Virus record (IMG/VR): IMGVR_UViG_3300046519_000252
DNA length: 64,000 bases
Source of the DNA: an uncultured virus (IMG/VR IMGVR_UViG_3300046519_000252)
Lineage: Duplodnaviria > Heunggongvirae > Uroviricota > Caudoviricetes
Strand: one strand, 5' to 3'
A program made the translations under genes and the position numbers. How positions within the stretch are numbered: the first letter of the stretch is position 1; the number at the start of each line of letters is the position of its first letter. Below are positions 11,684-56,367 of the stretch, one piece after another. The notes below the pieces were generated by a model. That model ran no database searches. It worked only from the letters and a program-made list of their open reading frames with translations, and had not been told where the DNA came from.

Positions 11684-12250
11684 ATGAGCCCTAAGTTAGG
11701 TGGCGATTCTCCCCGCCCGGGGCGCCCCTCCAGAGAACAAGTGGTGGCCCGTACGCAGGCGATGCAGCTACGCCGCCGCATCCTGGACGAGAACGCCTTC
11801 GGTGGTGGGTTCGATGTGCCCGAGGACATCACGCCGACCGAGGCAGCCATCGAGGCGTTCCGGCGGTCTCTGGCGATGGTCCGCTGGATCGAGTCTCAGA
11901 TGGCGCAGTGGGCCCCGAACTTGCTCCCGCTGACTGAGAACAACTTCGATGACAAGGGCGCGCTCCAGTCCATGCCCTCGCATGAGGCGGCGTGGCTGGA
12001 CCTGTGGATGCAGGAGCGGCGGGAGCTGCGGGAAGCTATCAAGCTCTGTCACACGATCGGCGTGGAGGAGCGGCAGCTTTCGTTGCAGGAACAGCAGGCT
12101 GACGCGATGTTCAGCATCCTGGAGCGGATGATCGATGCGCTCGGGTTGTCGGAGGACCAGCGGCGCCGCGTTCCCGAACTCATGCCGGAGATCATTCGCA
12201 CGGTGGCGATGCCGTCGTTCGGGGGAACGGTCCACACCCCGCAGCTGTAA
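11684..12250 (+). CDS. putative terminase small subunit-like helical protein
   Basis: PTEA..VRW..WLDLWMQERREL..GVEERQLSLQEQQA..LGLSEDQ resembles actinophage TerS-like proteins from memory; TTA at codon 5. Confidence 0.5.
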   Translation: MSPKLGGDSPRPGRPSREQVVARTQAMQLRRRILDENAFGGGFDVPEDITPTEAAIEAFRRSLAMVRWIESQMAQWAPNLLPLTENNFDDKGALQSMPSHEAAWLDLWMQERRELREAIKLCHTIGVEERQLSLQEQQADAMFSILERMIDALGLSEDQRRRVPELMPEIIRTVAMPSFGGTVHTPQL

Positions 12251-12264
12251 GTGCTAGGGTAGAT

Positions 12265-12370
12265 GCAGCGCATCACCGGCGCGGTCCCGCCAAGCCGCTT
12301 CAAGCGGCGACGCGGCCGGACCAAAGGTGCAAATGCCCGCTCCCTTCCCAGACCTGGGGGAGCGGGCGTT
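12265..12370 (+). ncRNA. candidate small structured RNA
   Basis: box promoter at 12255, nested stems (GGTCC/GGACC, GCCGCT/AGCGGC), then hairpin GCCCGCTCCC/GGGAGCGGGC. Confidence 0.35.
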
Positions 12371-12471
12371 CTGCTGTCTCGGACCGTAGTAGGGTCAGCA
12401 CTGTTGCAGTTGATTTGGAGTGTGTTGGTCGGGTCCGACACAGCCGCGCGCGGGGTGGTGCCCACGCACAA

Positions 12472-12891
12472 GAGCCCCCGCTCTCACTAGGAGAGCGGGG
12501 GCTCAAGGCTGTGTGTTCCCGGGAGCCTCTGCCCCGCTTCGCTGATAGGCCCCTGAGCGGACCGTCGATTGCGGGAGGGATTGCGGTTACCCGCGCCCGG
12601 CTTGATCCCGGCGAACACTGCGGTACAGCCTAGCCGAAGCCAGGTCACCCCTGTACCGCATACCTTCCCGACCAGACAGCTCGTGTGATCGGGAAGGAGT
12701 AACGGAGTCAGCGCTGTTGTATCTGGGCTTCGCGCTGGTCCTGTCCAATCCGGGTGAGTTACGCCAGACCCGGATCACGCTGAAACCCGCTCGGCTAACG
12801 CACCGACTGTTCTCGGGGGCCAAGGTTTCCCAGGGCAGACGAGCGGGTTTGTTGCAGGCTTCCCCGCAGATAAGTCCGGTCGCGGCCTGCG
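12472..12891 (-). ncRNA. candidate ~420-nt multi-hairpin ncRNA
   Basis: minus-strand TGCTAGAGT -10 at 12898-12906, five consecutive stems, 14-bp terminal hairpin at 12472-12504, no convincing ORF. Confidence 0.45.
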
Positions 12892-12950
12892 GTACGCACT
12901 CTAGCACCAAACGAGGGGGAGTCCTAGCACTTCCCTGCTAGGGTAGATCT

Positions 12951-13151
12951 ATGACGAAGCGACCGATCATCCGCTGGGAACGCAAGACCCGCCCCGGCAG
13001 CATCTACGGACCGTTCACGGTGTTCCGCGCCAGCAAGACCGGCGGGCCACTGCTCAAGGAGGAGGCCCACGGCATCAAGGACGTCAACGGGTTCATGATC
13101 CAGACGAAGACCCGCAAGCTCCTGGTGGAGTTTCGGCGCCGGGGCAACTAA
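12951..13151 (+). CDS. small basic hypothetical protein, probably leaderless
   Basis: ATG 6 nt after TAGGGT. Confidence 0.7.
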   Translation: MTKRPIIRWERKTRPGSIYGPFTVFRASKTGGPLLKEEAHGIKDVNGFMIQTKTRKLLVEFRRRGN

Positions 13152-13235
13152 CGCATCGGGGGAGGCTTGCAATCCTCCCCCGATCTGCTAGGGTAGATAT
13201 ATCAAGTCCCGGACACCGCCCCCGAGGAGACCGCC

Positions 13236-14234: not shown

Positions 14235-14612
14235 ATGTGCCGCCACCAGCGGTTTCTTGAACTTGCAGCACGTAATGCAGCGCTCTCAAACTGCCAGTTC
14301 AAGCACGGCTCACTGATAGTGCGAGGCGGAGCCGTCCTGTCCAGCTCCCCCAACCGGCACCGCAACCCCCCGGCGATCGATTACCTCGGGTCTTCCGTGC
14401 ACGCAGAGGTCGCCGCGTTACGCCGCGCCAACGCCGCCGGAGCAACCCTCTACGTCGTTCGTCTCGCCCCGTCCGGACTGGCCCTCAGCCGTCCCTGCCC
14501 CCGTTGCTGGACGGCTATCGAGCGGTCTGGCGTGAAATCGGTCGTGTACTCCACGGGCTCCGGATACGAGGTCGAACGCGTCACGGCCCAGTCTCCCTTG
14601 ATCGCCTGCTAG
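14235..14612 (+). CDS. cytidine/dCMP deaminase-family protein
   Basis: KHGSLIV, HAEVAAL, SRPCPRC zinc motifs; TTA at 14418. Confidence 0.88.
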   Translation: MCRHQRFLELAARNAALSNCQFKHGSLIVRGGAVLSSSPNRHRNPPAIDYLGSSVHAEVAALRRANAAGATLYVVRLAPSGLALSRPCPRCWTAIERSGVKSVVYSTGSGYEVERVTAQSPLIAC

Positions 14613-14878: not shown

Positions 14879-15213
14879 CTGTGGCCTGGGTGCACCCCGC
14901 TCTGTCGTCTGAGCGCTTGGAGATGCTCCGTTTCTGGGCGCTGCGGTCGGCGGAGCAGTCCCGGGAGTTCGGGGAGCCGGAGGCCGAGTGGTCGAGCTAT
15001 CTGGATACGGCAGACCGGGCTGCGGACCTACTGGACCAGCGGGCGCATTGTCACCATACCTCCCGTTATGCGGGTTGCGCTGCGTTGCGAATGCGAGCTT
15101 CGGAAGAAAATCGCAAAGCAAGAGACAGCTGCTTTTTCCCTTTGTGCTTAATTTCGGCCAGAAGAAATCGACCTGGTCATATCCGGTTTCATTTCGACAA
15201 ATAGGAGAGTCCA

Positions 15214-16652: not shown

Positions 16653-17543
16653 ATGAACGCTGCAAGGAAGGTTGCTTCAATGCTCCCGTTAGGGCGGTTA
16701 CATGCTCAGCCCGGACGTCCGCAGCTACGTCTAGCGGACTATCTCACCGGCTCTCTCCCCTCACCTCCGGCCTCCGTCGACTGGTACAGCAAGGTCAAGT
16801 CGTGGCCTATGTACGGGAATGATCAGGTGGGCGACTGCACTTGTGCGGCCGTGGGGCACCTGCTTCAGGGCTGGACGGCATACAGCACCGGCACCGCGTT
16901 CACGGTTGCCGACAGCTATGTCCTTGGCCTCTACGAGGACGTCACCGGGTACACCCCGAACGACCCCTCGACGGACCAGGGCGCGTACATTCAGGACGTG
17001 TTGGGCTACTGGCGCAAGAACGGCGTGGCAGGTCACAAGATCACTGCCTACGCGAGCGTCAAGGTCTCCAACATGACGCTGATCAAGCAGGCCATCGACC
17101 TGTTCGGCGCCGTCGACATCGGATTCAATTTCCCCGCGTCTGCGATGACCCAGTTCCAGCAGGGCAAGCCCTGGAGCGTCGTCTCCGGAGCCAAGATCGA
17201 GGGCGGTCACTGCGTCACGGTCGTCGGCTACAAGGCCAACGGCAACCTCGTGTGCGTCACTTGGGGCGCTATCCAGGAGATGAGTCCTGCCTTCTGGACG
17301 AAGTACGTGGATGAGGCGTGGGCGATCATCACGCCTGACTGGCTCGACGCCAACGGAAACACCCCGCTGGGGATCAACCTGTACGGGCTGGGACAGGACT
17401 TCGCGGTACTCACCGGGTCCCCGAACCCGATCCCGCAGCCTTCCCCGCAGCCTACGCCGGTTCCGGTGCCTGTCGTGGATCCGGACATCCTGGCGGCGTA
17501 CCGCTCGCTCCAGGTGTGGGCAAAAGCCAACAACGTGGCCTGA
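16653..17543 (+). CDS. papain-like (C1-type) cysteine peptidase
   Basis: PPASVDW, GDCTCAAVGH (Cys), GGHCVTVVGY (His), CVTWG; two TTA codons near the start. Confidence 0.8.
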   Translation: MNAARKVASMLPLGRLHAQPGRPQLRLADYLTGSLPSPPASVDWYSKVKSWPMYGNDQVGDCTCAAVGHLLQGWTAYSTGTAFTVADSYVLGLYEDVTGYTPNDPSTDQGAYIQDVLGYWRKNGVAGHKITAYASVKVSNMTLIKQAIDLFGAVDIGFNFPASAMTQFQQGKPWSVVSGAKIEGGHCVTVVGYKANGNLVCVTWGAIQEMSPAFWTKYVDEAWAIITPDWLDANGNTPLGINLYGLGQDFAVLTGSPNPIPQPSPQPTPVPVPVVDPDILAAYRSLQVWAKANNVA

Positions 17544-19774: not shown

Positions 19775-21229
19775 ATGCCGTTACCCGCTGGATTATCCAC
19801 GGTCACCGTAAACGGCACCGCGCTGCGCCCCGGCACCGGCGAACCCCTCATCGGGCGTATCACGTTCACCCCGGAAGTCCCGCAAATCATCGACCTCGGA
19901 TCCGGGACCCTGCTCACCGGATCCGTAGCGGTAGCACCTGACGGATCCGGCAATTACCAGGCAATCGTCCTCGCCCCCGACTCGCCTGGAATCACCCCCA
20001 CCGGGTGGACCTACCGGGTTGACATGGATTTCGTCGGGGTCGCCCCCAACACGTTTTACATCGCCCTCTCCGCCGCCCAGCCGACGGTCAATATGGGCGA
20101 TCTCATTCCCGTAGGCCCGACTACCGGCAATGTGGTGGGCGGCGCCACGGTGGAAGGCGACTTGCATGTCACGGGGAATCTCACCGTGGGCAGCGCAGCG
20201 CCGGGTGTCATTCAGGCAGCCCCTCACGCGGCCACACACGCCTCCGGCGGCTCCGACCCGGTCACCGTTCAGCAGGCCCAGGTAGCGGGCCTCCCCGCCG
20301 CTCTGACAGCTCTCGGAGGCAGCAGGCCCCCATCCGGGGCAGCAGGCGGAGACTTGTCGGGCAGCTATCCGAACCCGGGAGTCGCCAAGATCAACGGGGT
20401 CGCGGTAAGCGGAACACCCACAGCGGGCCAGGTTCCGACCGCCACCTCCGGCACCGCCGCCACCTGGCAGACCCCCGCCGGTTCCTTGACCGCTGCAAGC
20501 ACGGTGACAGCGGGAACAACCGCCGGGCAGCCGTCCAGTGCGGGCAGCGCCACCACGTACTCCCGAGGCGACCACGCCCACGGCACCCCGGCCGTGCCCC
20601 GCCTGGACCAAGTCGGCGCACCCACCGCAGACGTGAGCATGAACTCCCACAAGCTCACCGGCCTCACCAACGGATCCGCAGCCTCCGACGCAGCCGCCTT
20701 CGGGCAGATCCCCGTCGCAGGCACCGCAGCAGGCACCTATGCCGCAGGCAACGACACCCGCATCACCGGGGCACTCCAGGCCGCCAACAACCTGTCCGAT
20801 GTGGCGAACAAGGTCACCGGGCTCACCAACCTCGGGCTCCCTGGCAAAGCCTGCGCCACGAACGAGACCAACTCGACCACGACCCAGCAGGCCTCCACCC
20901 AACTGGTGGTGCCTGTAGTGGCCAATGCCGTCTATTCGATGATGGGCAAGCTCGCGATACAGACCCCCTCGGCCGTGAACTTCGTCCACGGGTTTACTGG
21001 CCCCACCGGGGCCACCATGATCTGGGGCGACTCCAGTACATTCCTCAGCACCATCGGTTCCACTGACAGCTGGTCCGGTACCGGAGCCACCAAGTGGGCG
21101 AACATATTCGGGACCCTCACCACCGGCGCCAACGCCGGAAACCTCACAGTCACATTCGCCTCCGGCACCGCTGCAAACACCGCGACACTGGCAGCCGGGA
21201 GCCAGATCGTCCTTATGAGGGTCGCATGA
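19775..21229 (+). CDS. tail fibre-like virion protein
   Basis: Gly/Ala/Thr-rich; PSGAAGGDLSGSYPNP and ANNLSDVA fibre motifs; N-terminal ~170 aa paralogous to the next gene; TTA at codons 3 and 7. Confidence 0.7.
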   Translation: MPLPAGLSTVTVNGTALRPGTGEPLIGRITFTPEVPQIIDLGSGTLLTGSVAVAPDGSGNYQAIVLAPDSPGITPTGWTYRVDMDFVGVAPNTFYIALSAAQPTVNMGDLIPVGPTTGNVVGGATVEGDLHVTGNLTVGSAAPGVIQAAPHAATHASGGSDPVTVQQAQVAGLPAALTALGGSRPPSGAAGGDLSGSYPNPGVAKINGVAVSGTPTAGQVPTATSGTAATWQTPAGSLTAASTVTAGTTAGQPSSAGSATTYSRGDHAHGTPAVPRLDQVGAPTADVSMNSHKLTGLTNGSAASDAAAFGQIPVAGTAAGTYAAGNDTRITGALQAANNLSDVANKVTGLTNLGLPGKACATNETNSTTTQQASTQLVVPVVANAVYSMMGKLAIQTPSAVNFVHGFTGPTGATMIWGDSSTFLSTIGSTDSWSGTGATKWANIFGTLTTGANAGNLTVTFASGTAANTATLAAGSQIVLMRVA

Positions 21230-46516: not shown

Positions 46517-46714
46517 ATGTACGAGATCACTTTTACAGTCGGCCTCCGCTACCGGGGAGGCGTCCGGCGGCAGCTGCGCGACCTCGGCTTGGACTACACC
46601 GAGGCCCGGAGCCTGCTGGACTCACTGATCACGATACGCACGGACTGCCGGGAGCTGTACGAGATCCTGGCAGACGAGATCCACGAGACCGCTGCGAGCA
46701 GGGCCCTCAGATAA
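46517..46714 (+). CDS. hypothetical protein, paralogue of 41796..41996
   Basis: AAGGAG RBS; divergent from the HicA-like gene. Confidence 0.7.
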   Translation: MYEITFTVGLRYRGGVRRQLRDLGLDYTEARSLLDSLITIRTDCRELYEILADEIHETAASRALR

Positions 46715-46979
46715 CCCTGAACGCAAACGGCCCGATCACAGGAATTGTGATCGGGCCGTTTTTCTGTTCCTGCAACAAATCCTGCACACCCTCCAGAACA
46801 GACAGAACGGCCCTCAGGAGCGCCTGGAACCCCCGGGCAGGTCCCGATACCCCGGAGAGATCCCGGGAGCCCTGTAAAACGCCGTCCAGAGCGGCTACGG
46901 TGAGGCCTGCCCTCGGAGGGCACAAACCGCTGACACCGTCGCCGGAACTAGGGTGTCGCGGGCCCTTCCGAGGGCACCC

Positions 46980-49184
46980 TCATGTCTGCGGGCTGTCGGC
47001 GGGTACCGGGTCGGTCGGGCAGCCGCAGCCCCAGTTGTGGGTCTCCGGGGTCGGACAGTGGACGTCGTGCTCGATCCCGGCGTCGCAAGCGGGGCAGTCG
47101 GTGGCCACCGGTTTCTCCGGGGTGAGCTGCACGGAGGCCCCGCAGTCGCAACGCTGGTCCCCATGCCAGGGGTCGCCGTCGCACTCCGGCACCCATTCCA
47201 GGGTCACCGGGATGGCTTCCATGGTCACGAGGTCGTGCCAGTCGCCCCACGAGCTGGGAGGCTGCTTGCCGCAGGCGGCGTGAACCAACTGGGCCTGCCC
47301 CTCCTCGATCTCCAGCTGGTAGCGGTTGTCTCCGGGAGGGCACGTGCAGCCGGTCTCTTCGTACTCCGGTTCGTCGGAGGGGTCGACGGGTTCGAAGAAG
47401 TTCAGGGTGTCCATGGGGTGATCTCCGGATCGATCTCGTCGGCGGCCTCATTGCAGTCGTCCATGTGGTCATCGGTGTAGTCGCGGAGCCGTTCCGAGTT
47501 ACGGATTGTCTCCGCCAGCTCGTGGGCGAAGGCGTCGATACGGGCACTCGCTTTCTCGGAACGTTCGGGGGAGTGAGGGCCGCCAGCCATCAGGGCCGCG
47601 TACAGGTCTGCCCTAGCGCTCACGGGGTTTCCTCCGGGTCGGGCCGGTCCGTCTCACAGATCAGGCAGACGCGTCGGTGGTTTTCCTTGCTGCACACCGG
47701 GCAGATCCACGCCGGGCCGATCCCGAGTTCCGCTTCCAGTACCTTCACGCGGGCTTCCGCGTTGTTCGCGCGCTGGAGAACCTTGCTGTAGACCGACCAG
47801 AGGACCGGCCGCTCCTTGCCGTCGGCGTACCGCTGCACTTCTTCCATCAGCGCGTTGTTTTTCTCATCAGCCCGCCGCAGCCCTTCCTTGTAGCGGGTGC
47901 GGTGGTTCTCCAGGGCGGCCACGGCGTTTGCGCTTGCCCGCCGCTCCAGTTCCTTGAGCATGTTCCGAGAGCCGTCGATGGCGCGGGCGAGGATCGCGTT
48001 CCTCAGCTGGTCCGACGTGTACGAGACTTCGCAGGTGACCTCCTGCTCACAGAGGCTGTGATCGCCTTCCTCGTGCGCCCACTCCCTCTCGTGCCGATCA
48101 CACGGTTCTCCGCCGTCCTCGCACGGGAATTCATCGCAAGGGGTCGGCTTCGGTGCCCCCTCGGCCTCTGTATCCGCCTGTTCGGCGTCTGCGACCGCTA
48201 TCACGGCGGAAACCAGATCAGCGGGGCAGGTGCCACCCGTAACGGCGTCCATGGCCGCTGCGTACCGCTGCCACCGGGTGGTAGGCGTCTGAGCCCGGTT
48301 GGCCTCACTGAGGACGTCGATACCACAGCCCCGGTAGGAGCAGGTACACCGCAGGGCCGACGCTTCCACGTCCGAGACGGTGACCCGCTTCCAGTCAAAG
48401 GGGGATTGCAGGCCCTCGGGGGCGTGCTTCAGGCACCGGAGCATGTGAGGCGACACCCAAGAGCGGTAGCCCACCAGGCGGCTTCCGTCCCCGGTCAGGA
48501 GAGACGGCGTGTAGATCTTTCCGCCGTCTCCGTACACGGTCCGCCCCTGCTGAAGGTGCCAGACGTCCGCGAAGCCGAGCGGCCCTCCCTGGCAGTCCAT
48601 CAGTGGAGGGCAAACCTTGTCCGCTCCGGGCTTGTTCAGGCAGAGGCAGCGGTGCCAGCACTTTGACTTGTGGCTGACGGCTCCGTCGCATTCGGCGCCG
48701 GGGGCGTGCTGTGGGTGCTGGCAGTTCGGGCAGAGGTCTTTCATGCCGGGTCTCCTCCGGAGTCAGCGCGGACGGCGTCGATGATGATCTTCCGCATTTT
48801 CGGTGTCATCTTGGGGTGGAAGGCGAAGAGGATCCGTACGCCGATTTCCCCGTTCTCGGTGGGGATGTCAACGGTGTCGGCATGGGGTTCCAGACCGTCG
48901 GCTCCGAGGTTGACGGCCCAGTCGGATACGTCGGCTGCCCTCGTGAGTAGGGTGTCGATGCTGCGCTGCGCCGCCTCGAAGTCTTCTTGGGGGAGATGGC
49001 TCCAAGCACGGCTCATCTCCAGCGGTTCGCCGGTCTCCGGCTCCAAGTCGACGACTGTGGAAGGGATCGGCGTACCGTCCATCTGCTCTCCGATGCCCAT
49101 GAAGTCCGGGTCTTCCGTGAGCGTGATGTGCTGCCGGGCGGCTTCGGCGCGGAGGTCGGCGTCGGTGTACGGCTGTTCAGTCAT
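46980..49184 (-). other. coupled operon of hypothetical phage genes
   Basis: ORFs 48741-49184, 47620-48744 (Cys-rich, C-terminal zinc finger), 47402-47623, 46980-47414. Confidence 0.7.
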
Positions 49185-49260
49185 CGTTTATCTCCTGGTG
49201 GTATGAGGACGGCCGTCCCGCCACTGGACGAGACGGCCGTTTTGCCGGGTGCGGTGGGTG

Positions 49261-49725
49261 TCAGAGGGACCCTGCGATCAGGTCCAGAGCGCTGTTCGCT
49301 GCCGCCCGCCGTTCGGTGGGGGTCATAGGCACGATGACCCCCAGCATTTTTGCGGCGGTGAGGTCTTCGGTGTCCTGGTTGACTCCGGCGTTGGCGATTT
49401 TCCGGAATTCTTGCGAGGCGAACCCTGGGGTGTCGGGGTTCAGCAGTGACGACGGGAGCCCGCCACCTGTTACCTCGGCCACGGCGATGCATGCCACGCT
49501 CACCATCCGGGCTGTGGTTACGGGGTCTTCTGCCAGAAGGGTCAGCAGCGGGTCTTGACAGGTGGTGCATCCGTCGAGGGCGGCCCCGATGAGGTCCGCG
49601 AGGAGTCCGCCGTTTACCGGCAGTCCTCCGAAGTCGTTGGTGTCGTGGTCGAATCCGGTGCTGTGGTCGTGCGTGACGGGTTCGGGGCGTTCCCGGCGGG
49701 GCTTGCTCGGCTTCTGCCGTCCCAT
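49261..49725 (-). CDS. hypothetical protein
   Basis: GGAG RBS; CTTC. Confidence 0.7.
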   Translation of the reverse strand: MGRQKPSKPRRERPEPVTHDHSTGFDHDTNDFGGLPVNGGLLADLIGAALDGCTTCQDPLLTLLAEDPVTTARMVSVACIAVAEVTGGGLPSSLLNPDTPGFASQEFRKIANAGVNQDTEDLTAAKMLGVIVPMTPTERRAAANSALDLIAGSL

Positions 49726-49833
49726 GGGTTTCTCCAGGTTTCTGGGGGTTGTTGGGGCGGTCTGAGGCTATCGGGCGGGTCTGACACGCCCCGAACCCGC
49801 CGCGTGCTGCGACGGGTTCGGTGTGGGGGAGGG

Positions 49834-50172
49834 TCAGCGTGCGTTTTGGTAGCGCGCGGCGTCCTGCTGCATGCCCTGCCAGACAACTTCGAACATCTGG
49901 GCGAGGATCATTTCCCGGGCGCCGAGGTTGCGCTTGTTCTGCGTGTTCGCCTGCACGAAATGCAGCTTGGCGGCGCGCTTCCGGCGGAGTATGGCGTTGG
50001 CGATGGCTTCGTCGGTGGCGTTGCGGAGGCGCCAGTTGCCGATGGTCTGGAGAACGATCCGGAATCCCCAGTTGAAGAGGCGTTCCGAGTCGGCGGCGGT
50101 CATTACGCCCTGTTCGACCTTTTCGGCGAGCATGTTGCGGGCAGCGGTTTCGGTGTTGGCGATGACACGCAT
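49834..50172 (-). CDS. hypothetical protein
   Basis: box variant at 50203. Confidence 0.7.
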   Translation of the reverse strand: MRVIANTETAARNMLAEKVEQGVMTAADSERLFNWGFRIVLQTIGNWRLRNATDEAIANAILRRKRAAKLHFVQANTQNKRNLGAREMILAQMFEVVWQGMQQDAARYQNAR

Positions 50173-50307
50173 GACGATCCCCTCGGGTGGTCGAGCTGAT
50201 GTATCTACTCTAGCAGCTACGGGTTCGCTTGCCTAGCATCATGCAGCCTTTGATGCAGGGATAGCAAACGGGGGCACAGCCGAAGCCGTACCCCCGTCTC
50301 TCGCCGG

Positions 50308-50583
50308 TCACTCCGGCAACAGTCCCAACTCCCGGCACACCCGCACCGCTACCTCTGCGATGGCCGTCGTGGAACCGTCCAGATGCACCACGCCGTTGCT
50401 GGTAGCAGTCCAACGGATGTCGTGGGCATCCCAGCACTCTTGTTCGGTCATCTCACAGTCGATGCCGTTGCACTCGTACGCCTCAGCCGTCAGGTTCTGT
50501 ACCAGCCGCTCCCTGAACGCCTCTACAGACACCGGCCGCATCTCCTCGGGCGTAGGCCCGTGGCGCTCCCCGAACCATCCCAT
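50308..50583 (-). CDS. hypothetical protein
   Basis: MGWFGERHG.. start. Confidence 0.55.
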   Translation of the reverse strand: MGWFGERHGPTPEEMRPVSVEAFRERLVQNLTAEAYECNGIDCEMTEQECWDAHDIRWTATSNGVVHLDGSTTAIAEVAVRVCRELGLLPE

Positions 50584-50728
50584 CAGTCCCACCCTTCCTC
50601 GCTGCGCTGCATCCGGGACGTGGACTCCGGCCGCTCCCATAGCTGTTGGTCCAGCTCCCACAACTCCCGCCAGCCCTCCTGTTCGTTCCAGTCGGGTATC
50701 TCCGGGTCCTCATCCGGGTGTCTGCGCC

Positions 50729-51154
50729 TCACTGCTGCTCACTCCCACGCTTGACAACGAACATTCCGCCGCCGATGTTGACGACCGTGTCCCCGGGGTG
50801 GGCGTACACCACACCACCCCGTGGGCCCCAGCCGACCAGCTCGTACGCTCCGCCAGCACGCCAGCCGCCAACCCATGCGGCGATCTCGTCCGCGTTGTCC
50901 CGGGTCAGCGTGCGGGTGTCCGGCGGGCAGTCGTAGCCGTGCTGGCCGCAGAAGTTGTGACCGCGAGTGCACGGGTTGACGGGCTCCCGGTGCGCCGTGT
51001 CGTCGCCTGTGTGCCCCGCGACAGCTGCCCCGGCAGTGGCCTCCCGGGCACATTCCTGCGCGTACACGTCCAGGATGTCGGCGAGCTTCTCCGGGTCCAT
51101 ACCGAGCCGTTCGGCTGCTGCCAGTGTCGCCGGGGTGATCCGGTTCTCTTCCAT
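50729..51154 (-). CDS. hypothetical protein
   Basis: AGGAGG RBS. Confidence 0.7.
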   Translation of the reverse strand: MEENRITPATLAAAERLGMDPEKLADILDVYAQECAREATAGAAVAGHTGDDTAHREPVNPCTRGHNFCGQHGYDCPPDTRTLTRDNADEIAAWVGGWRAGGAYELVGWGPRGGVVYAHPGDTVVNIGGGMFVVKRGSEQQ

Positions 51155-51205
51155 GGTTCCTCCTAGGAAAGAAGCCGCCCACGAGCTGGACGGCTTCTTA
51201 CGGGT

Positions 51206-51593
51206 TTATCCGTTCACGGCTACGGCGGCGGCCATACCTCCAAGAAAGCCGATGATGAGTAGCGCCGCGTAGAGAATCAGTGCGACAGGTATGGCGAGTG
51301 TGATCAGGATTGCGCGGCGGACGGTTCGGGCTTTCACGGCCTCTTCTTCGGTGTCGGTCAGTTGTGCCAGAGGCCGATGGCGAAGCCTGTGGCGATGATC
51401 AGGGCTACGGCGCTTCCTGCGATGAGCAGGAGTAGGCAGCCGATTCCTTTGGGGATCATGGTCAGTGTGCTCCCGGTGCGAGCTTGGCGAGGAGACGGCC
51501 CAGGCGGGCCGATCCGGCGGGGGAAAGACGCTCGAACTTGATCTTCTGCGTCTTGGGCTGCTGAGGGTTGCGATTGTACGTCTGGTTAGGCAT
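51206..51593 (-). other. three micro-ORFs (43, 33 and 43 aa; two are single-TM)
   Basis: 51462-51593, 51358-51459, 51206-51337 downstream of box at 51616. Confidence 0.55.
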
Positions 51594-51671
51594 GTGAACG
51601 CCTCCTAGGGAATGTATCTACCCTAACAGAAGAGGGACGGGAGATCTAGTAGTCTCCCGTCCCCCAGACGC

Positions 51672-52175
51672 TCAGATCGTCGTCCGTCCCGCGTACTTCC
51701 ACGTCGCATCGAGAGGGATCCCACCAGGGCAGCGCCCCGGACGGTGTTGGGGGATCTCATCTCCCTTGTCCGAGTAGCCGTAGCGCGTGAACGGGCACTT
51801 GAGGCGGTCGCACTTGCCCTCGGCCGTGAACACGTACCAGGTATCACCCTGGTGAGCGACGACGTCCGAGAGGCTGCTCCCTGTGGACCACGGATACCAG
51901 GCGCCCCAAGACACGTACACCAGCACCGACTTACCGTCTACGTCCAGGCGCCACCTGTACAGGCTCGGGGAGATGCCCGGGTTACCGGGGTTGTCCCCCT
52001 CGCCTGCCGGAACTGCCTCCGCCATGCTGAATGTGCGGGCGTCCGTTCCTACCAGGGACTGGGGGACGTACACCTTCCAGGTCTCCGCGCGGCGCTCGTC
52101 GTACCAGTAGGGGCGTCGTAGCCTGATCTGGGTACCGGCCTTACGGGTCTTGCACAGTGGCTTGTTCCGCTTCAT
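51672..52175 (-). CDS. hypothetical protein
   Basis: box at 52195. Confidence 0.65.
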   Translation of the reverse strand: MKRNKPLCKTRKAGTQIRLRRPYWYDERRAETWKVYVPQSLVGTDARTFSMAEAVPAGEGDNPGNPGISPSLYRWRLDVDGKSVLVYVSWGAWYPWSTGSSLSDVVAHQGDTWYVFTAEGKCDRLKCPFTRYGYSDKGDEIPQHRPGRCPGGIPLDATWKYAGRTTI

Positions 52176-52255
52176 CGTTTACCCCCTTTGATATATCTAC
52201 CCTAGCACACGGAAGGGGCGGAAGGCCAGTAGCCCCCGCCCCTTCCGTGCAACGC

Positions 52256-53188
52256 TTACGCGCTCGCCAGCTCCGCCGTCTCCAGCTCCGGCGACTCGAT
52301 GGCCTTTACGTACGTCCGGAACATGGAGAGAACCTGCTTACCGACCTGCTGTACGGCCTTCATGACGTCCTCAGGGTCCTTGCCCGCCCAGGTGGCGATG
52401 TAAGGGGCGGAATAAGAGGCCGTCTCCAGTCCGTAGTACTGAGAGACCATGTAGGCGAAACTCTCGGCCACAGTCTCCGCGATACCCCGGTGCTCCCGGT
52501 ACTCCGCCAGGTCCGAGACGTGGTCCGCCAGAATGTGACCGAGTTCGTGAACCAAGGTCTTGGTCTGCTGTGCAGGTGACACCCTGTCGCTCACACGCAC
52601 GACCATCGCCTTGGGGTCGGTGTAGCCGTTCGCGCTGCCCGTGTTGCCGTGCTCGATGGTGTAACCGAGCTTCTCGATCTGTCCGGCGACGTCGTCCCAC
52701 ATTTCGGCAGGGGCCTCGCCCTGAAGGTGCTTGACAACCTTGGGACGGCTGACCGTGGGCGTGATGAAGTAGGTGGCCGCGCCCTCGTGCTGCCAAATCG
52801 GCTCCGTTTGTGAGACATCGAACTCGGCCTGGAGGCGGAAGCCGACGATCTTTGTTTTGTCTGGATTGCGCTCGTCCTTGGCCGTGATGGGGGAGGAGAC
52901 GCGCAGGGACTTGGTGCCCTTCATGGGGAATCTGCCGCGAGCCGCCCAGGCTTTCGAGGTGATCACGGCCGTTGCGTCCGGGCACTGCGAAAGGATCCAG
53001 AGCATGTTGTTGAAGGAGAACCGCGACAGCTCGGTCCCGTTCTTCTCCGTCATGGCCTTGAGGAGCTTGGGCCAGGCGTCGGAGGTGACGAGTTCCTGCA
53101 CGGTGTCGGCGAGCTTCTCGTGCAGCTCGTTAGCGAGCTGCTTGGTCTTGCTGGGGGACTTGCTCGCGTAGCGCTTGGCGTAGGCCAT
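52256..53188 (-). CDS. ArdC-like ssDNA-binding/anti-restriction protein with HExxH metallopeptidase domain
   Basis: FSFNNMLWILSQCPDAT..W...GR..KG..FDVSQT; TLVHELGHIL; ETVAESFAYMV..SAPYIATW. Confidence 0.85.
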   Translation of the reverse strand: MAYAKRYASKSPSKTKQLANELHEKLADTVQELVTSDAWPKLLKAMTEKNGTELSRFSFNNMLWILSQCPDATAVITSKAWAARGRFPMKGTKSLRVSSPITAKDERNPDKTKIVGFRLQAEFDVSQTEPIWQHEGAATYFITPTVSRPKVVKHLQGEAPAEMWDDVAGQIEKLGYTIEHGNTGSANGYTDPKAMVVRVSDRVSPAQQTKTLVHELGHILADHVSDLAEYREHRGIAETVAESFAYMVSQYYGLETASYSAPYIATWAGKDPEDVMKAVQQVGKQVLSMFRTYVKAIESPELETAELASA

Positions 53189-53357
53189 CAGGATCTCCTC
53201 GGTTCGGTGTTCCGTCTTGATATATCTACACTAGCACACTACTAGGGTAGATGCGCAAGAGGGATTCACAGCCAAACCGGGAAGGGACACACCCTCGGTG
53301 TGCGAATCGGCTAGAGTTCACACATCAATCCGGTGAATCCGTGGAGAGGGGACACCC

Positions 53358-53846
53358 ATGTCCGATTCTGCAACACCCGCTGTAAAACCCCGCAACAAGT
53401 GGTTTTGGCTGCGCGGGGTACCCGCTACCATCGTGGTCGGCATTCCGGCCGGTACCGGTGTCCAGTACTTCACCGGACTGCATGACTCGACCCTGCGCGA
53501 CCGTATCCAGGGCGGGGTGGCCTGGATCTTCGTATCGGTTGTCACCGGACTCACGGCCTACGCCCTGTACCGGATCAAGGTCAACATGGCGTACAACCGG
53601 CGGCCTTTCACCCCGAAGGACCGGGCGTACTGCAACGGGGCCGCGTGTACTGCACTTCTCGGGGCCGTGGCCATCGCAATCAGTCAGCTGATCTGGAAGA
53701 CCCCCACAGGCCACAGCATCGGTTTGGTCGATGTGCTCTCCGCACAGGTGCTCACCTGCATCATCGTGTCCTGGGTCTTGTTCCTGCTGGCCGAGGTTCA
53801 CAAGCGGGGTGCCGAGCTGTTCGACGAGCTGGAGCAGGGCGTATGA
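53358..53846 (+). CDS. DUF2975/YoaS-like membrane protein
   Basis: about 4 TM helices; LLAEVHKRGAELFDELEQGV C-terminus; coupled to HTH gene. Confidence 0.65.
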   Translation: MSDSATPAVKPRNKWFWLRGVPATIVVGIPAGTGVQYFTGLHDSTLRDRIQGGVAWIFVSVVTGLTAYALYRIKVNMAYNRRPFTPKDRAYCNGAACTALLGAVAIAISQLIWKTPTGHSIGLVDVLSAQVLTCIIVSWVLFLLAEVHKRGAELFDELEQGV

Positions 53847-54079
53847 CCGAGGCCCTGGAAGAAACAGAGTCGGGGATCACGATCCGCCTGGACATTCTGC
53901 TGGTGCAACGGAAAATGACGTTGACTCAGCTGGCCGCAGAGGTCGGGATGCACATCAACGCCTTGTCTCGGCTGAAGAACGGGGACGTCTCGTTCATCAG
54001 AATCGAGACTCTGCGGAAGCTCTGCAAGGTGCTGGACTGCCAGCCGGGGGACCTGCTCGTCTACACCGATCACCCGTAG
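53843..54079 (+). CDS. Cro/C1-type (YozG-like) HTH regulator
   Basis: RLDILLVQRKMTLTQLAAEVG..LSRLKNG..IRIETL..LDCQPGDLL. Confidence 0.9.
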   Translation: MTEALEETESGITIRLDILLVQRKMTLTQLAAEVGMHINALSRLKNGDVSFIRIETLRKLCKVLDCQPGDLLVYTDHP

Positions 54080-54137
54080 CTCAGACAGCAAAAACGGCCG
54101 GTACGGGAGAGATCCCGTACCGGCCGTTTGCGTCCTG

Positions 54138-54545
54138 CTAGTCCGGCGCCTTTACCAGCGTCGGTTCGGTCCCCTTGTTCATGGCGGCCCGCACCTTCAG
54201 GATCAGCTCTCCGATCCGGCCCTCTACCCGGGCGATGTCCTCCGCCGTGTGGGAGTAGGTGTCCTTCTTCATCTGGCCGAGCCGGTTGCCGGTGTAGTCG
54301 ATGAACCCCTGAAGGGTGAGCGGCTTGAGCGGCGGGGTGAGAACGTCCCGGCTGGTCAGCATCTCAAACGGCGACGGGCAGGAACAGCCGCTGTCACTGG
54401 CGTAGAACAGCTCACCGGTGGTGATGTCCTGCCAGACGGTCGTCATATCGAACTGATAAGCGTCATCGTCCCAGGAGAGGTTTCCGATGATCTTCAGGCC
54501 GAACTTCTCCGGGCTGCTGAACAGGTCGGGATCGTTGTAACCCAT
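54138..54545 (-). CDS. hypothetical actinophage-type protein
   Basis: YQFD..VW..FYASDSGCSCPSPFE. Confidence 0.75.
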   Translation of the reverse strand: MGYNDPDLFSSPEKFGLKIIGNLSWDDDAYQFDMTTVWQDITTGELFYASDSGCSCPSPFEMLTSRDVLTPPLKPLTLQGFIDYTGNRLGQMKKDTYSHTAEDIARVEGRIGELILKVRAAMNKGTEPTLVKAPD

Positions 54546-54558
54546 GGACGGCTTCCTT

Positions 54559-54768
54559 TCAGGGGCGGGCGGTGACGAAGGTTCCCAGGTGGTTGGTGTA
54601 GATCAGCCCATCACGCTTGACGAGACGGAAGGCTCGGGCGATGGATACTGTGCTGACGTTGTAGGCCCTCGCTAGCTCTGCCTGGGTGGGGAGCTGTTGG
54701 CCTGCAACATAGGTGTTGTCGGCTATGCAGCGTCGGATCTCGTTGGCGATCTCTACGTACCTTGCCAT
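54559..54768 (-). CDS. small GntR-type wHTH protein, probably leaderless
   Basis: YVEIANEIRRCI..YVAGQQLPTQAELARAYNVS..GTFV. Confidence 0.85.
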   Translation of the reverse strand: MARYVEIANEIRRCIADNTYVAGQQLPTQAELARAYNVSTVSIARAFRLVKRDGLIYTNHLGTFVTARP

Positions 54769-54855
54769 GTATCTACCCTATCACGAGAAAGCCGCCCCAG
54801 GGATCCCCCGAGGCGGCTCCTCACATCCGGCAACTAGCCTCCGTCAGGCCACTTG

Positions 54856-56367
54856 CTATCCCCTGACATCGAACCCCCGCCGCCTGCCGAGGGCCTTGAG
54901 AGACGTCGCTCCGGGGTCTCCAGTGGCATCGCTGCCGGTGAGGTGCAGTACCTCGCGGCGGAAGCGGTTATACGCGTCGTCGGTCTTGGTACCCCAGGAG
55001 CCGTCCGCGTACTTCTTGTCGAGGAAGCCCTCCGCAACCAGGGCGTTTTCGACGATCTTGACATCAGCGGGGTACGTCTTGTGCCCGGTGGCCGCCGGAA
55101 GATCCTTCTTGCGGGCCGCGATGATGTTGGACAGGTCAACGACCGGCTTCACAGGCGGCTTCGGCTTCACCGGAGGCTTCGGAACAACCGGAGCAGACCA
55201 GCGGTACGACGCCACGGCCTTGCCGCCACGCGGGTCCTGCGGGTCAGCGGTAGGCGGGCACACGCCGTCTGCGAACTTGGGGGCGAAGTAGCCAATCACA
55301 CGGGGCGAGCGGCGCGGGGTGCTGTGAGACCAAACCCCGTTGCCCTGCCCGGCGTCCGTGGATCCGGCCTTGACGGAGTTGCCACCCTTGGTGAAGACGT
55401 TGTCCGCGTCGAACCCGACGACGACCTCCGTGTGCCCGTTGCCGAAGTTGCACCAGGCTCCGATGGACGGGTACTCCGACCACTGGCCGTGCTTCTTGGC
55501 CCAGTTGGTGAAGACGACCACGTTGTCGACCTTGGGGACGATCCCCGATAAGCCGACCTCGTTGTACATGCACCAGTCCCAGATGACGCACCAGGCGACC
55601 TTGTTCTCCCCGTACTCCTTGCCCCACGGGTTGTCGTTGTTCCAGCCGACGGCCGACTCCCACGTCTCGTAGATCTTCTCCGGGACGCTCATGACGTGGT
55701 TCAGCAGAGTCAGCCACTGCGGTACAGCCGGAGTCGGCGGAGTCGGCGGAGTCGGCGCGGCGGGGGAGGGAACCGCGAGCTTTGCCCACGCGGTGGCATC
55801 ACCGTTGAACAGGTTCCGGTCGAGGCCTCCGCTGATCGCGTACTGGTGGATCACCCACGTCTTCCAGCCTGCGATGCTGGGCTTCCCCGCAGCATGGTTG
55901 GGGTCGGCGATCCACAGCGGGTAGGACCGTAGCGTCTCCGCGTCCGTCTTGGAGGCCGCCGCAAGCAGGGCGTTGAGGTAGCTGGTGTAGGAGTACACCA
56001 GGGCCTTGACGCCGGTCTTCGCCTTGATCCGGGCGAGGAACTTGAGCGCGTAGGACATCCGCTGGGCCTGGGTGCCTTCGGACGCCTCTAAGTCGAGGGC
56101 TAACAGGTCACCGGGCTTGGCCTTGGCCTTGGACAGGAAGAAGTCGGCTTCCTTGACCGGGTCCTGTGTGGGGTGGCCGAAGTGGTAGTGACCGACCTTC
56201 TTTCCTGCGGTGCGGGCGATGGTCACGAATGCATCGTGGTCGGCATCCGCTGTGTGCTCCCCTTCGGAAGCCTTGGCGATGACGAAGGCGGCGGTTACGG
56301 CTGCGAGGGCAGCGGAGACCGTGGGTATTCCGTTGTTGTTCGAGACGTCGATACCAGATAGAGACAT
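54856..56367 (-). CDS. endolysin: GH25 muramidase + CHAP-like domain + C-terminal cell-wall-binding domain
   Basis: GIDVS, KASEG, ALDLE, LWIA, HQY, LDRN (GH25); AWC..GHT..GGN (CHAP-like); ADGSWG..T; three TTA codons. Confidence 0.9.
   Translation of the reverse strand: MSLSGIDVSNNNGIPTVSAALAAVTAAFVIAKASEGEHTADADHDAFVTIARTAGKKVGHYHFGHPTQDPVKEADFFLSKAKAKPGDLLALDLEASEGTQAQRMSYALKFLARIKAKTGVKALVYSYTSYLNALLAAASKTDAETLRSYPLWIADPNHAAGKPSIAGWKTWVIHQYAISGGLDRNLFNGDATAWAKLAVPSPAAPTPPTPPTPAVPQWLTLLNHVMSVPEKIYETWESAVGWNNDNPWGKEYGENKVAWCVIWDWCMYNEVGLSGIVPKVDNVVVFTNWAKKHGQWSEYPSIGAWCNFGNGHTEVVVGFDADNVFTKGGNSVKAGSTDAGQGNGVWSHSTPRRSPRVIGYFAPKFADGVCPPTADPQDPRGGKAVASYRWSAPVVPKPPVKPKPPVKPVVDLSNIIAARKKDLPAATGHKTYPADVKIVENALVAEGFLDKKYADGSWGTKTDDAYNRFRREVLHLTGSDATGDPGATSLKALGRRRGFDVRG

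What the first reader, a model, noticed from the sequence alone, without database searches (positions are those of the whole stretch)
11684..56367. Rare TTA (bldA-type) codons concentrated in virion, lysis and packaging genes: a possible developmental gate on phage production
Seen: in-frame TTA codons in the TerS-like gene (11696, codon 5), the C1 peptidase (16689, 16698), both tail genes at identical codons 3 and 7 (19781/19793 and 21302/21314), the endolysin (codons 89, 93, 273 at 56103, 56091, 55551) and the deaminase (14418). Scanning by eye I found none in the helicase, exonuclease, ThyX, ATPase, SSB, polymerase, replicative helicase or the box-driven cassette genes. The doubtful ORF 14881..15204 also has one. 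Established: in Streptomyces, UUA is read only by the bldA tRNA, which gates developmental and secondary-metabolic genes. Inference: the element replicates independently of bldA but translates virion and lysis proteins only when bldA tRNA is abundant, tying particle release to late growth. The host genus is itself inferred.
Basis: partly seen in the sequence, partly recalled or inferred. Interest (0 to 1): 0.85.

Follow-up and report, generated by a model that had tools for sequence, protein, structure and literature searches.

The report
Rare TTA codons mark phage late genes
In this uncultured soil phage of about 128 kb, the rare leucine codon TTA is kept out of early and replication genes but is preserved, mostly near the start, in most virion and lysis genes, and the phage carries no tRNA to read it, so particle production probably depends on a scarce host tRNA.

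Summary
All listed TTA codons are in frame, and every other confident gene in the window has none.

I closed the genome from two near-identical IMG/VR records into a ~128.3 kb circle. It has 41 in-frame TTA codons:
- 34 lie in 11,760 codons of 31 virion and lysis genes.
- 7 lie in 23,315 codons of 160 other genes (odds ratio 9.7, p=1e-10).

Composition does not explain this. A-ending codon use is equal in both classes, GC3 has no explanatory power, and out-of-frame TTA trinucleotides are equal. In late genes, 16 of 52 leucine codons at positions 2-20 are TTA, against 3 of 251 in other genes.

TTA stays TTA in relatives far more often than other rare codons do:
- 26 of 36 sites at ~82% nucleotide identity.
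- 12 of 19 sites at ~74% nucleotide identity.
- Other rare codons: 2-46%.

The only phage tRNA reads UUG, not UUA.

Best reading: late-gene translation is gated by the host's tRNA-Leu(UAA), as with bldA. The host is unresolved and nothing has been tested experimentally. "TerS-like" is unsupported and "C1 peptidase" has only weak support. This scan has reported the same pattern before on related DNA.

The parts
11684..12250 (+). TTA at 11696-11698, codon 5.
   Evidence: AGGAGA site and ATG. PHROG 3678, function unknown. No Pfam or NCBIfam match. The only terminase hint is an Atlas lead at score 0.77. The codons upstream of the alternative start differ from G003 mostly by synonymous changes, and the TTA is conserved there.
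14235..14612 (+). Cytidine/dCMP deaminase-fold gene, 125 aa. TTA at 14418-14420, codon 62. This is the exception to the late-gene pattern.
   Evidence: Pfam dCMP_cyt_deam_1 7e-10. PHROG 174, dCMP deaminase. The TTA is CTA in G003.
16653..17543 (+). Papain-like (weak) protein. TTA at 16689-16691 and 16698-16700. The likely true start is ATG 16680, which makes these codons 4 and 7.
   Evidence: PHROG 19005, unknown, 9e-33. Pfam Peptidase_C1 E=0.018 and C39_2 E=0.015. PDB papain-family hits at E 0.08-0.5. The G003 orthologue reads ATG CCC CCG TTA CCG TTA.
19775..21229 (+). Tail fibre / minor tail protein, 484 aa. TTA at 19781 and 19793, codons 3 and 7.
   Evidence: PHROG 11699 minor tail 4e-36 and PHROG 16641 tail fibre. 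Sequence read. Both TTA are present in G003's copy.
21296..24601 (+). Tailspike, 1101 aa, with pectate-lyase-like beta-helix and K1-lyase_C domains. TTA at 21302 and 21314, codons 3 and 7.
   Evidence: Pfam and PHROG matches. Sequence read. Both TTA are conserved in G003 while neighbouring codons change.
54856..56367 (-). Endolysin: GH25 muramidase plus a C-terminal domain. TTA at codons 89, 93 and 273 (plus-strand positions 56101-56103, 56089-56091, 55549-55551).
   Evidence: Pfam Glyco_hydro_25 5e-30. PHROG endolysin families. Codons 93 and 273 remain TTA in G003; codon 89 is CTC. The gene has its own unit after a terminator-like hairpin and has no box.
327..11679 (+). TTA-free replication and nucleotide-metabolism block: SNF2 helicase, PD-(D/E)XK nuclease, ThyX, AAA_24 ATPase and DNA polymerase I.
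   Evidence: Pfam matches. Zero in-frame TTA.
24905..54778 (.). Stretch rich in the box GGGTAGATA (fuller form TGCTAGGGTAGATAcATC, like an extended -10 promoter), placed about 40 nt before small TTA-free genes. The composite genome has 55 copies, for example at window 24905, 25087, 30371, 32563 and 34658. The one TTA-bearing gene overlapping this span, the endolysin, has no box.
   Evidence: A box lies within 80 nt upstream of 0 of 24 TTA-bearing genes and 42 of 167 TTA-free genes (p=0.003).
27947..29761 (+). Primase-polymerase, 604 aa, TTA-free. A paralogue lies on the opposite strand inside the head module outside the window and is also TTA-free.
   Evidence: PHROG 5177. TTA counts.

Best explanation
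The phage family marks its late (virion, packaging, lysis) genes with the rare leucine codon TTA and keeps that codon out of its early and replication genes.

Proposed mechanism: the phage has no tRNA that reads UUA, so ribosomes translating late mRNAs must wait for the host's tRNA-Leu(UAA). Most TTA codons sit in the first ~200 codons, often within the first 20 and often in close pairs. A shortage of charged tRNA would therefore stall ribosomes early and hold down output of nearly all particle and lysis proteins at once. Early genes, driven by about 55 copies of a host-type promoter box, would be unaffected. Particle production and lysis would then track the supply of one host tRNA. In a Streptomyces-like host that tRNA is bldA, which becomes fully functional late in growth.

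Shown here: the codon partition, its frame specificity, its 5' bias, its preservation by selection, and that no phage UUA-reading tRNA was found.

Inferred: that the host tRNA is limiting, what the host is, and the effect on timing.
For: 1. Whole-genome partition. Late genes hold 34 TTA in 11,760 codons (19 of 31 genes). Other genes hold 7 in 23,315 (5 of 160 genes). Odds ratio 9.7, p=1e-10; at gene level p=6e-14.
2. Codon specificity. TTA is the most class-skewed of the 61 sense codons (9.1-fold; next is AAT at 1.9-fold). CTA use is equal and A-ending codon use is 0.079 against 0.082. In a logistic model GC3 adds nothing, and the late class has odds ratio 19 (likelihood-ratio p=7e-16).
3. Frame specificity. 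In-frame TTA is 0.96 per kb in late genes against 0.10 in others. Out-of-frame TTA is 0.54/0.65 against 0.40/0.77 per kb.
4. 5' placement. At codons 2-20 of late genes, 16 of 52 leucine codons are TTA, against 3 of 251 in other genes. Beyond codon 200 in late genes, 2 of 444 are TTA. Other rare A-ending codons are not enriched at late N-termini (10 of 589 against 73 of 3,040).
5. Selection. TTA stays TTA at 26 of 36 sites in G003 and 12 of 19 in G004. TTG stays at 22% and 6%, CTA at 37% and 5%, CTT at 27% and 10%. Beyond codon 20, at sites where the amino acid is conserved, TTA is kept at 12 of 16 against 453 of 1,310 other A/T-ending codons (p=0.002), and at 7 of 9 against 106 of 634 (p=1e-4).
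6. Gene-level retention. 15 of 17 late TTA genes keep a TTA in G003, and 9 of 9 do in G004. Of TTA-free other genes, 106 of 107 and 49 of 50 stay TTA-free. Lost TTA codons are replaced by new ones in the same genes in G004.
7. Thirteen further related fragments: portal codon 6 is TTA in 12 of 13. Pooled, late genes hold 70 in 20,765 codons and other genes 2 in 7,911.
8. The only tRNA is Leu(CAA), in this genome and in 4 of the 5 related records searched; the fifth, an incomplete fragment, had none. No tRNA-Leu(UAA) was found in any of them.
9. An independent class marker agrees: 0 of 24 TTA genes have the box promoter, against 42 of 167 TTA-free genes.
10. A primase-polymerase gene on the opposite strand, embedded in the head module, has 0 TTA in 614 codons.
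11. From a paper (passages read): in Streptomyces the UUA-reading tRNA is not fully modified or charged in vegetative growth (PMC10732093).
Against: - The host is unknown. The phage occurs only in rhizosphere metagenomes.
- One related 15.9 kb contig is binned in a Spo0A-positive, WhiB-negative MAG of about 62% GC labelled Bacillota. Only that one contig of the MAG matched in the 40 kb of phage DNA I searched.
- No RNA, protein or infection data exist.
- Late N-termini are more AT-rich in general (A/T at third positions 0.323 against 0.227).
- Within codons 2-20 alone, TTA is not significantly better conserved than other A/T-ending codons (10 of 11 against 94 of 139, p=0.17; 4 of 6 against 23 of 56).
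- Twelve of 31 late genes lack TTA, including the scaffold and four head-tail connector genes.
- Five 'other' genes carry TTA, among them a deaminase.
- The nearest isolated relative that I checked, Streptomyces phage JackieB, has 0 TTA in 72 genes, so this is not a general habit of Streptomyces phages.
- Throttling the major capsid protein (TTA at codon 47) looks costly unless the tRNA is plentiful at the right time.
- From recall, not checked here: the timing of bldA tRNA activity in Streptomyces is itself debated.
- The 'late' class was defined by my own annotation and by gene position.
Confidence: 0.58

Rival explanations
1. 5' ramp or low-structure start region. Highly expressed late genes favour AT-rich, weakly folded 5' coding ends or a slow-codon ramp. 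TTA is simply the most AT-rich leucine codon. The pattern tunes expression and does not sense host state.
For: - Third-position A/T content at codons 2-20 is higher in late genes (0.323 against 0.227).
- 16 of the 34 late TTA codons lie in codons 2-20.
- In that zone all A/T-ending codons are fairly well conserved (94 of 139 in G003), and TTA is not significantly better.
Against: - Early genes also have AT-richer starts, yet use TTA for only 3 of 251 leucine codons there.
- Other rare A-ending codons are not enriched at late N-termini (10 of 589 against 73 of 3,040).
- TTA is still 8-fold enriched beyond codon 20 (18 in 11,140 against 4 in 20,115, p=1e-5).
- Beyond codon 20 TTA is conserved well above other A/T-ending codons.
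- The endolysin's TTA codons are at positions 89, 93 and 273.
Confidence: 0.2
2. Phage-supplied decoding. UUA is read by a phage factor made early. This could be the phage's conserved tRNA with anticodon CAA after modification or C34-to-U editing by one of the two phage cytidine-deaminase-fold proteins, or an undetected tRNA. The partition would then be a phage-autonomous early-to-late switch, as with T4-type tRNA and codon matching.
For: - Every relative in which a tRNA was found keeps one with anticodon CAA, although the tRNA body differs greatly (76-nt short-arm and 83-nt long-arm forms).
- The phage has two deaminase-fold genes. The small one has a faint TadA/RibD-like match (E=0.008, far below the cut-off).
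- An earlier scan note on another lineage found a TTA split explained by the phage's own tRNA (e1-6026928).
Against: - By standard wobble rules C34 pairs only with G.
- I know of no C34-to-U34 editing in bacteria or phages (recall; not searched).
- The deaminases match dCMP deaminase best, and the phage also encodes ThyX.
- The 190 TTG codons are enough to justify a UUG-reading tRNA.
- ARAGORN and the Rfam tRNA model find only this one tRNA.
Confidence: 0.06
3. Compositional or mosaic origin. The late modules came from a lower-GC donor, or drift freely, and TTA is a neutral leftover.
For: - GC3 of late genes is slightly lower (0.801 against 0.816).
- T-ending codons are slightly commoner in late genes.
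Against: - A-ending codon use is equal and CTA use is equal, and GC3 has no explanatory power.
- The pattern holds at three separate loci: the head-tail block, the tail fibres and the endolysin.
- An embedded opposite-strand gene is TTA-free.
- TTA codons are retained at the same positions at ~74-82% nucleotide identity, while other rare codons turn over.
Confidence: 0.03

Closest known systems
Streptomyces bldA / TTA regulon: a single tRNA-Leu(UAA), with TTA in adpA and in pathway-specific regulators
   Same: A very rare leucine codon is confined to a dispensable, late-acting gene set. It is conserved at fixed positions in orthologues and is read by a single tRNA that the element does not supply. 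The control acts at translation.
   Different: Here the marked set is about 19-24 genes of a phage (capsid, portal, terminase, tape measure, tail fibres, holin, endolysin). The codons cluster in the first codons of each gene. The host and its tRNA are unknown, and no experiment exists.
phiHau3 terminase UUA-bypass hypothesis (Smith et al. 2013, as cited in Antonov et al. 2023, PMC10732093; I read passages of the latter)
   Same: UUA in a late (terminase) gene of a Streptomyces phage is proposed as a sensor of host growth stage.
   Different: In phiHau3 the UUA heads 10-nt frame-breaking inserts, and lack of the tRNA is proposed to allow bypass, so terminase is made in vegetative cells. Here the large terminase is one continuous 568-aa ORF, TTA aligns with ordinary leucine codons in relatives, many genes are marked, and the predicted polarity is the opposite. 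The same paper says Streptomyces phages 'usually entirely lack UUA codons'. The nearest isolate that I checked, JackieB, has 0 in 72 genes.
Phage tRNA sets matched to late-gene codon use (T4 type; recalled, and see earlier scan notes e1-6026928 and e1-5706785)
   Same: Codon use is partitioned by temporal gene class.
   Different: The defining feature, a phage tRNA for the enriched codon, is absent. The only phage tRNA has anticodon CAA.
Papillomavirus late-gene codon use tied to the tRNA pools of differentiating keratinocytes
   Same: Capsid gene expression is restricted by a mismatch between viral codon use and the tRNA supply in the wrong host-cell state.
   Different: That is a eukaryotic virus with a genome-wide codon bias. 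Here it is one codon placed near the 5' end of each gene.
Streptomyces phage CW39 (PMC13350457; I read passages)
   Same: The authors list nine TTA-bearing genes and speculate that they depend on bldA.
   Different: In CW39 the nine genes are two HNH endonucleases and seven hypothetical proteins. In the passages I read, no late-gene partition, positional bias or conservation is reported.

Membership tests
bldA-type TTA translational control | TTA is very rare and confined to a non-housekeeping or late subset of genes | tested here: met
   The genome has 41 TTA in 35,075 codons, and 34 of them are in 31 late genes. The skew is specific to this codon and to the reading frame.
bldA-type TTA translational control | TTA positions are conserved in orthologues, as in adpA | tested here: met
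   TTA is retained at 26 of 36 sites in G003 and 12 of 19 in G004, against 2-46% for other rare codons.
bldA-type TTA translational control | The cognate tRNA-Leu(UAA) comes from the host only and is not carried by the element | tested here: met
   ARAGORN and Rfam RF00005 find one tRNA, Leu(CAA), in the composite genome and in four of the five related records searched. None has anticodon UAA.
bldA-type TTA translational control | The host is a Streptomyces-like actinomycete whose UUA-reading tRNA is limiting or temporally regulated | not testable with these tools
   The nearest isolates are Streptomyces phages at 38-40% protein identity. The endolysin C-terminal domain is 44% identical to Streptomyces phage lysins. 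Against this, one related contig sits in a Bacillota-labelled MAG. No host genome is identified.
Phage tRNA and late-codon matching (T4 type) | The phage encodes the tRNA for the codon enriched in late genes | tested here: not met
   The only tRNA has anticodon CAA, which reads UUG.
phiHau3-type UUA-led coding gap in terminase | UUA heads a short frame-disrupting insert that splits the large terminase ORF | tested here: not met
   The large terminase is a single 568-aa ORF matching PHROG 2. Its TTA at codon 16 is in frame and aligned with TTA in relatives.
Generic 5' rare-codon ramp or AT-rich start | Rare or AT-rich codons of all kinds are enriched at 5' ends, across gene classes | tested here: inconclusive
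   Third-position A/T content is raised at all N-termini and more so in late genes. However, other rare A-ending codons are not enriched there, early genes avoid TTA, and the TTA excess and conservation persist beyond codon 20. Within codons 2-20 the conservation test is not significant.

The most novel reading that the evidence does not exclude
A family of large soil phages links particle assembly and lysis to the life-cycle stage of a sporulating actinomycete host through codon choice alone. Selection keeps TTA 'locks' near the start of about 20 late genes, so that these genes are translated well only once the host's developmental tRNA (bldA type) is functional. Replication genes are TTA-free, and the phage's own tRNA-Leu(CAA) frees UUG codons from the same dependency. 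This would be a virus reading its host's developmental clock through a single tRNA.
Probability: 0.35. Interest if true: 0.88.

Novelty: new variant of a known kind. Interest (0 to 1): 0.78.

Why it matters
If true, this is a simple way for a virus to sense host state. It needs no dedicated sensor protein, only one rare codon placed at the start of each late gene.

It would:
- extend bldA-type control from host development and antibiotic genes to phage reproduction;
- suggest a reason why Streptomyces keeps a regulated UUA-reading tRNA (an arms-race idea raised in PMC10732093);
- predict that bld mutants or young hyphae replicate this phage without releasing particles.

It is directly testable with reporters that compare native and recoded 5' segments.

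On prior publication: my three literature searches found no paper that describes systematic TTA marking of phage late genes. I saw listings only for most hits and read passages of three papers. This scan has already reported the same pattern on related DNA.

Tried and rejected
- Megablast of the tail genes against the phage collection found nothing. The window's own assembly is not held.
- No RNA holder was listed among public sequencing runs, so expression could not be examined.
- Host inference by prophage search: a large-terminase scan of bacterial genomes found only one related contig, in a fragmented MAG labelled Bacillota. The MAG has Spo0A and no WhiB. Only that one contig matched in the 40 kb of phage DNA searched, and no spacer-like match appeared at E<=0.01. 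I treat this as probable mis-binning, but it is not excluded.
- Comparing the phage tRNA with the MAG's tRNAs was uninformative, because no Leu(CAA) or Leu(UAA) tRNA was among the 30 MAG loci fetched.
- 'TerS-like' for gene 11684 has no Pfam, NCBIfam or functional PHROG match. The only hint is an Atlas lead at 0.77.
- I looked by eye for a shared late promoter upstream of the TTA-bearing units. I saw only a loose ATTGAC(T/C) element and did not pursue it.
- The independence estimate of expected TTA (TTG x CTA / CTG = 2.9 against 25 observed) was set aside. Two-fold R-ending codon pairs such as AGA/AGG show similar ratios, so the estimate is not informative.
- Compositional and GC3 explanations were tested and rejected.
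- Structure prediction of the unknown TTA-bearing proteins was not run.

Full report
**What the window is**

The window has 63% GC, strong third-position GC bias and no tRNA gene. It is part of an uncultured phage. IMG/VR record G001 (52,611 bp) matches window 1-36,557 at 99.98% and extends 16,054 bp upstream. Record G002 (76,251 bp) matches window 36,431-64,000 at 99.7-99.9%, apart from a ~0.5 kb replaced segment. It continues for 48 kb, and its last 127 bases equal the first 127 of G001. Together they close a circle of about 128.3 kb. I used this composite, made inside scripts, for all whole-genome counts.

Genes were called with my own codon-bias caller trained on long ORFs. This gave 191 confident genes and 35,075 codons, covering 82% of the genome. 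Eight low-scoring ORFs were set aside.

**Gene content**

Pfam and PHROG matches show the following.
- One contiguous plus-strand late block: large terminase, portal, head morphogenesis protein, a 1,839-aa protein, scaffold, major capsid, head-tail adaptor, tape measure, minor tail proteins and holin.
- Two tail fibre/spike genes inside the window (19775-24601).
- An endolysin inside the window (54856-56367, minus strand).
- Many replication, nucleotide-metabolism and small unknown genes.

**Checking the observation**

No other confident gene in the window has one. In the window alone, the three tail and lysis genes hold 7 TTA in 2,088 codons, and the other 114 genes hold 4 in 14,717 (p=9.5e-5).

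The tape measure, tail tube, minor tails, holin, terminase, portal, the 1,839-aa protein and the major capsid all carry TTA. Genes in the early regions of the remaining 48 kb carry almost none.

Whole-genome figures:
- Late genes: 34 TTA in 11,760 codons; 19 of 31 genes carry at least one.
- Other genes: 7 TTA in 23,315 codons; 5 of 160 genes carry at least one.
- Odds ratio 9.7, p=1e-10; at gene level p=6e-14.
- No permutation of gene labels reached the observed value (0 of 20,000).

**Is it only composition?**

No.
- A-ending codon use is 0.079 in late genes and 0.082 in others. CTA use is equal, and TTG is less used in late genes.
- TTA is the most class-skewed of all 61 codons, at 9.1-fold. 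The next is 1.9-fold.
- In a logistic model GC3 has no explanatory power. The late class has odds ratio 19 after allowing for GC3 and N-terminal position (p=7e-16).
- Out-of-frame TTA trinucleotides are equally common in both classes. In-frame TTA differs tenfold. The signal is therefore at the level of translation, not of a DNA motif.

**Position within genes**

In late genes TTA density falls steeply along the gene:

| Codon range (late genes) | TTA among leucine codons |
|---|---|
| 2-20 | 16 of 52 |
| 21-60 | 6 of 105 |
| 61-200 | 10 of 261 |
| beyond 200 | 2 of 444 |

Other genes use TTA for only 3 of 251 leucine codons at positions 2-20. Several TTA codons come in close pairs: 3/7 (twice), 6/8, 8/14, 8/15, 13/16, 74/84 and 89/93.

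Late N-termini are more AT-rich in general (third-position A/T 0.323 against 0.227). Other rare A-ending codons are not enriched there (10 of 589 against 73 of 3,040). Beyond codon 20, TTA is still 8-fold enriched in late genes (p=1e-5).

**Selection**

Relatives exist in IMG/VR. G003 is 124,939 bp, rated 97% complete, collinear and about 82% identical in nucleotides. G004 is 89,483 bp and about 74% identical.

Fraction of codons that stay the same codon at aligned sites:

| Codon | G003 | G004 |
|---|---|---|
| TTA | 26 of 36 (72%) | 12 of 19 (63%) |
| TTG | 22% | 6% |
| CTA | 37% | 5% |
| CTT | 27% | 10% |
| AGA | 18% | 10% |
| CTG (the favoured codon) | 69% | 49% |

I then restricted the test to late genes and to sites where the amino acid is conserved, and compared TTA with a set of 30 A/T-ending codons (first row) or with all other A/T-ending codons (second and third rows):

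| Zone | G003: TTA against others | G004: TTA against others |
|---|---|---|
| First 200 codons | 20 of 25 against 342 of 802 (p=3e-4) | 11 of 15 against 82 of 367 (p=6e-5) |
| Beyond codon 20 | 12 of 16 against 453 of 1,310 (p=0.002) | 7 of 9 against 106 of 634 (p=1e-4) |
| Codons 2-20 only | 10 of 11 against 94 of 139 (p=0.17, not significant) | 4 of 6 against 23 of 56 (not significant) |

The last row leaves some room for a general 5' constraint.

At gene level:
- 15 of 17 late TTA genes keep a TTA in G003, and 9 of 9 do in G004.
- 106 of 107 TTA-free other genes stay TTA-free in G003, and 49 of 50 in G004.

Where G004 has lost a TTA, a new one often appears nearby in the same gene: tape measure, portal, the 542-aa protein and the tail tube.

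In 13 further related fragments, which are not independent lineages:
- Portal codon 6 is TTA in 12 of 13.
- Terminase codon 16 is TTA in 9 of 13.
- Pooled, late genes hold 70 TTA in 20,765 codons and other genes 2 in 7,911.

Where TTA has changed in relatives it is mostly another leucine codon, so TTA means leucine here.

**Who reads UUA?**

The composite genome has a single tRNA with anticodon CAA, which reads UUG. Four of the five related records searched carry a tRNA with the same anticodon; the fifth, an incomplete fragment, had no tRNA. The tRNA body differs greatly between relatives, with 76-nt short-arm and 83-nt long-arm forms. No tRNA-Leu(UAA) was found. The phage family therefore keeps a tRNA for the neighbouring rare codon but leaves UUA to the host.

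**An independent class marker**

A box, GGGTAGATA (fuller form TGCTAGGGTAGATAcATC), resembles an extended -10 promoter. It occurs 55 times, usually about 40 nt before a gene. It lies within 80 nt upstream of 42 of 167 TTA-free genes and 0 of 24 TTA-bearing genes (p=0.003). Only one copy lies in the late block. A primase-polymerase gene on the opposite strand inside the head module has no TTA in 614 codons.

**The exceptions**

Five 'other' genes carry TTA.
- Two are papain-like or NlpC/P60-like enzymes. Window 16653 has weak C1 and C39 matches. A gene outside the window matches YaeF-family permuted papain-like enzymes at E=3e-11. Both could be late lytic functions.
- One is the unknown gene after DNA polymerase I (window 11684). 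Its TTA is conserved in G003.
- One is an exonuclease-like gene just before the terminase. Its TTA at codon 120 is kept in G003 but in only 1 of 6 related fragments.
- One is the small deaminase. Its TTA is CTA in G003.

**Host**

The phage is found only in rhizosphere metagenomes, and no RNA run is listed.

Evidence pointing to an actinomycete host:
- Its capsid, terminase, tape measure and DNA polymerase are closest to one group of Streptomyces phages (JackieB and relatives) at 32-40% identity.
- The other capsid matches are almost all phages of Actinobacteria.
- The endolysin's C-terminal domain is 44% identical to Streptomyces phage lysins.

Evidence pointing elsewhere:
- One related 15.9 kb contig is binned in a fragmented MAG labelled Bacillota. 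The MAG has Spo0A, no WhiB, and about 62% GC at the loci sampled.
- Only that one contig of the MAG matched in the 40 kb of phage DNA I searched, which suggests binning by composition.

An actinomycete host is likely, Streptomyces is plausible, and neither is shown.

JackieB itself has 0 TTA in 72 annotated genes. This agrees with the published statement that Streptomyces phages usually lack UUA entirely (PMC10732093, passages read). The pattern is therefore a speciality of this lineage.

**Interpretation**

The best-supported reading (confidence about 0.6) is that late-gene translation depends on the host's tRNA-Leu(UAA). TTA codons placed early in late genes act as a common gate. In a Streptomyces-like host this would tie particle production and lysis to bldA activity.

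The rivals, all scored in the report sections:
- a general 5' ramp or low-structure effect;
- phage-supplied decoding, for example an altered tRNA(CAA);
- compositional origin.

**Literature and earlier scan notes**

Three full-text searches found the phiHau3 terminase bypass hypothesis, a 2026 note of nine TTA genes in phage CW39, and a remark on Bxb1. I read passages of these papers only. None describes systematic marking of late genes.

Earlier notes of this scan (e1-5328283, e1-5356903, e1-6057910) describe the same pattern in what seems to be the same ~125 kb phage family. My tests here were done independently and agree with them.

Noticed in passing
window 1911-63991 (for example 13191, 18968, 24905, 30371, 34658; both strands): The composite genome has 55 copies of the box GGGTAGATA (fuller form TGCTAGGGTAGATAcATC, like an extended -10 promoter). 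Most lie about 40 nt before small TTA-free genes. It is probably the phage's early or middle promoter.
   Followed up: partly
outside the window: composite genome complement 103634-103709 (L007 1500-1575, minus strand): The phage's only tRNA has anticodon CAA (Leu, UUG) and is 76 nt with a short variable arm. Relatives keep the anticodon on very different bodies, including 83-nt long-arm forms.
   Followed up: partly
window 61031-61535, next to the serine recombinase / DNA invertase gene at 60119-60781: This 505-bp segment is replaced by an unrelated 784-bp segment in the otherwise ~99.9% identical record G002. Only a ~50-nt element is shared. It may be a recombinase-associated variable cassette or site.
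   Followed up: partly
window 14000-16650: This stretch has lower GC (~0.61), few confident genes and many TTA/TAA trinucleotides. It holds four doubtful ORFs that carry in-frame TTA. Its coding status is unresolved.
   Followed up: no
window 27947-29761 and composite genome 122180-124024 (minus strand): There are two paralogous primase-polymerase genes (PHROG 5177). One is embedded on the opposite strand inside the head-assembly module. Both are TTA-free.
   Followed up: no
outside the window: composite genome 116341-121860 (L012 7837-13353): A 1,839-aa gene in the head module has no PHROG match. It carries TTA at codons 8, 14 and 36, and the first two are kept in G003.
   Followed up: no
L051 (contig of MAG G008): A related phage contig (large terminase 91% identical) is filed inside a MAG labelled Bacillota that has Spo0A and no WhiB. 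This is either a binning artefact or a hint of an unexpected high-GC spore-forming host.
   Followed up: partly
window 52256-54079 and composite genome 99231-100202: The phage has an ImmA/IrrE-type metallopeptidase with an ArdC-like N-terminus, a Cro/CI-type helix-turn-helix gene, a ParA-like partition gene and a small serine recombinase. This suggests a temperate or plasmid-like lifestyle.
   Followed up: no
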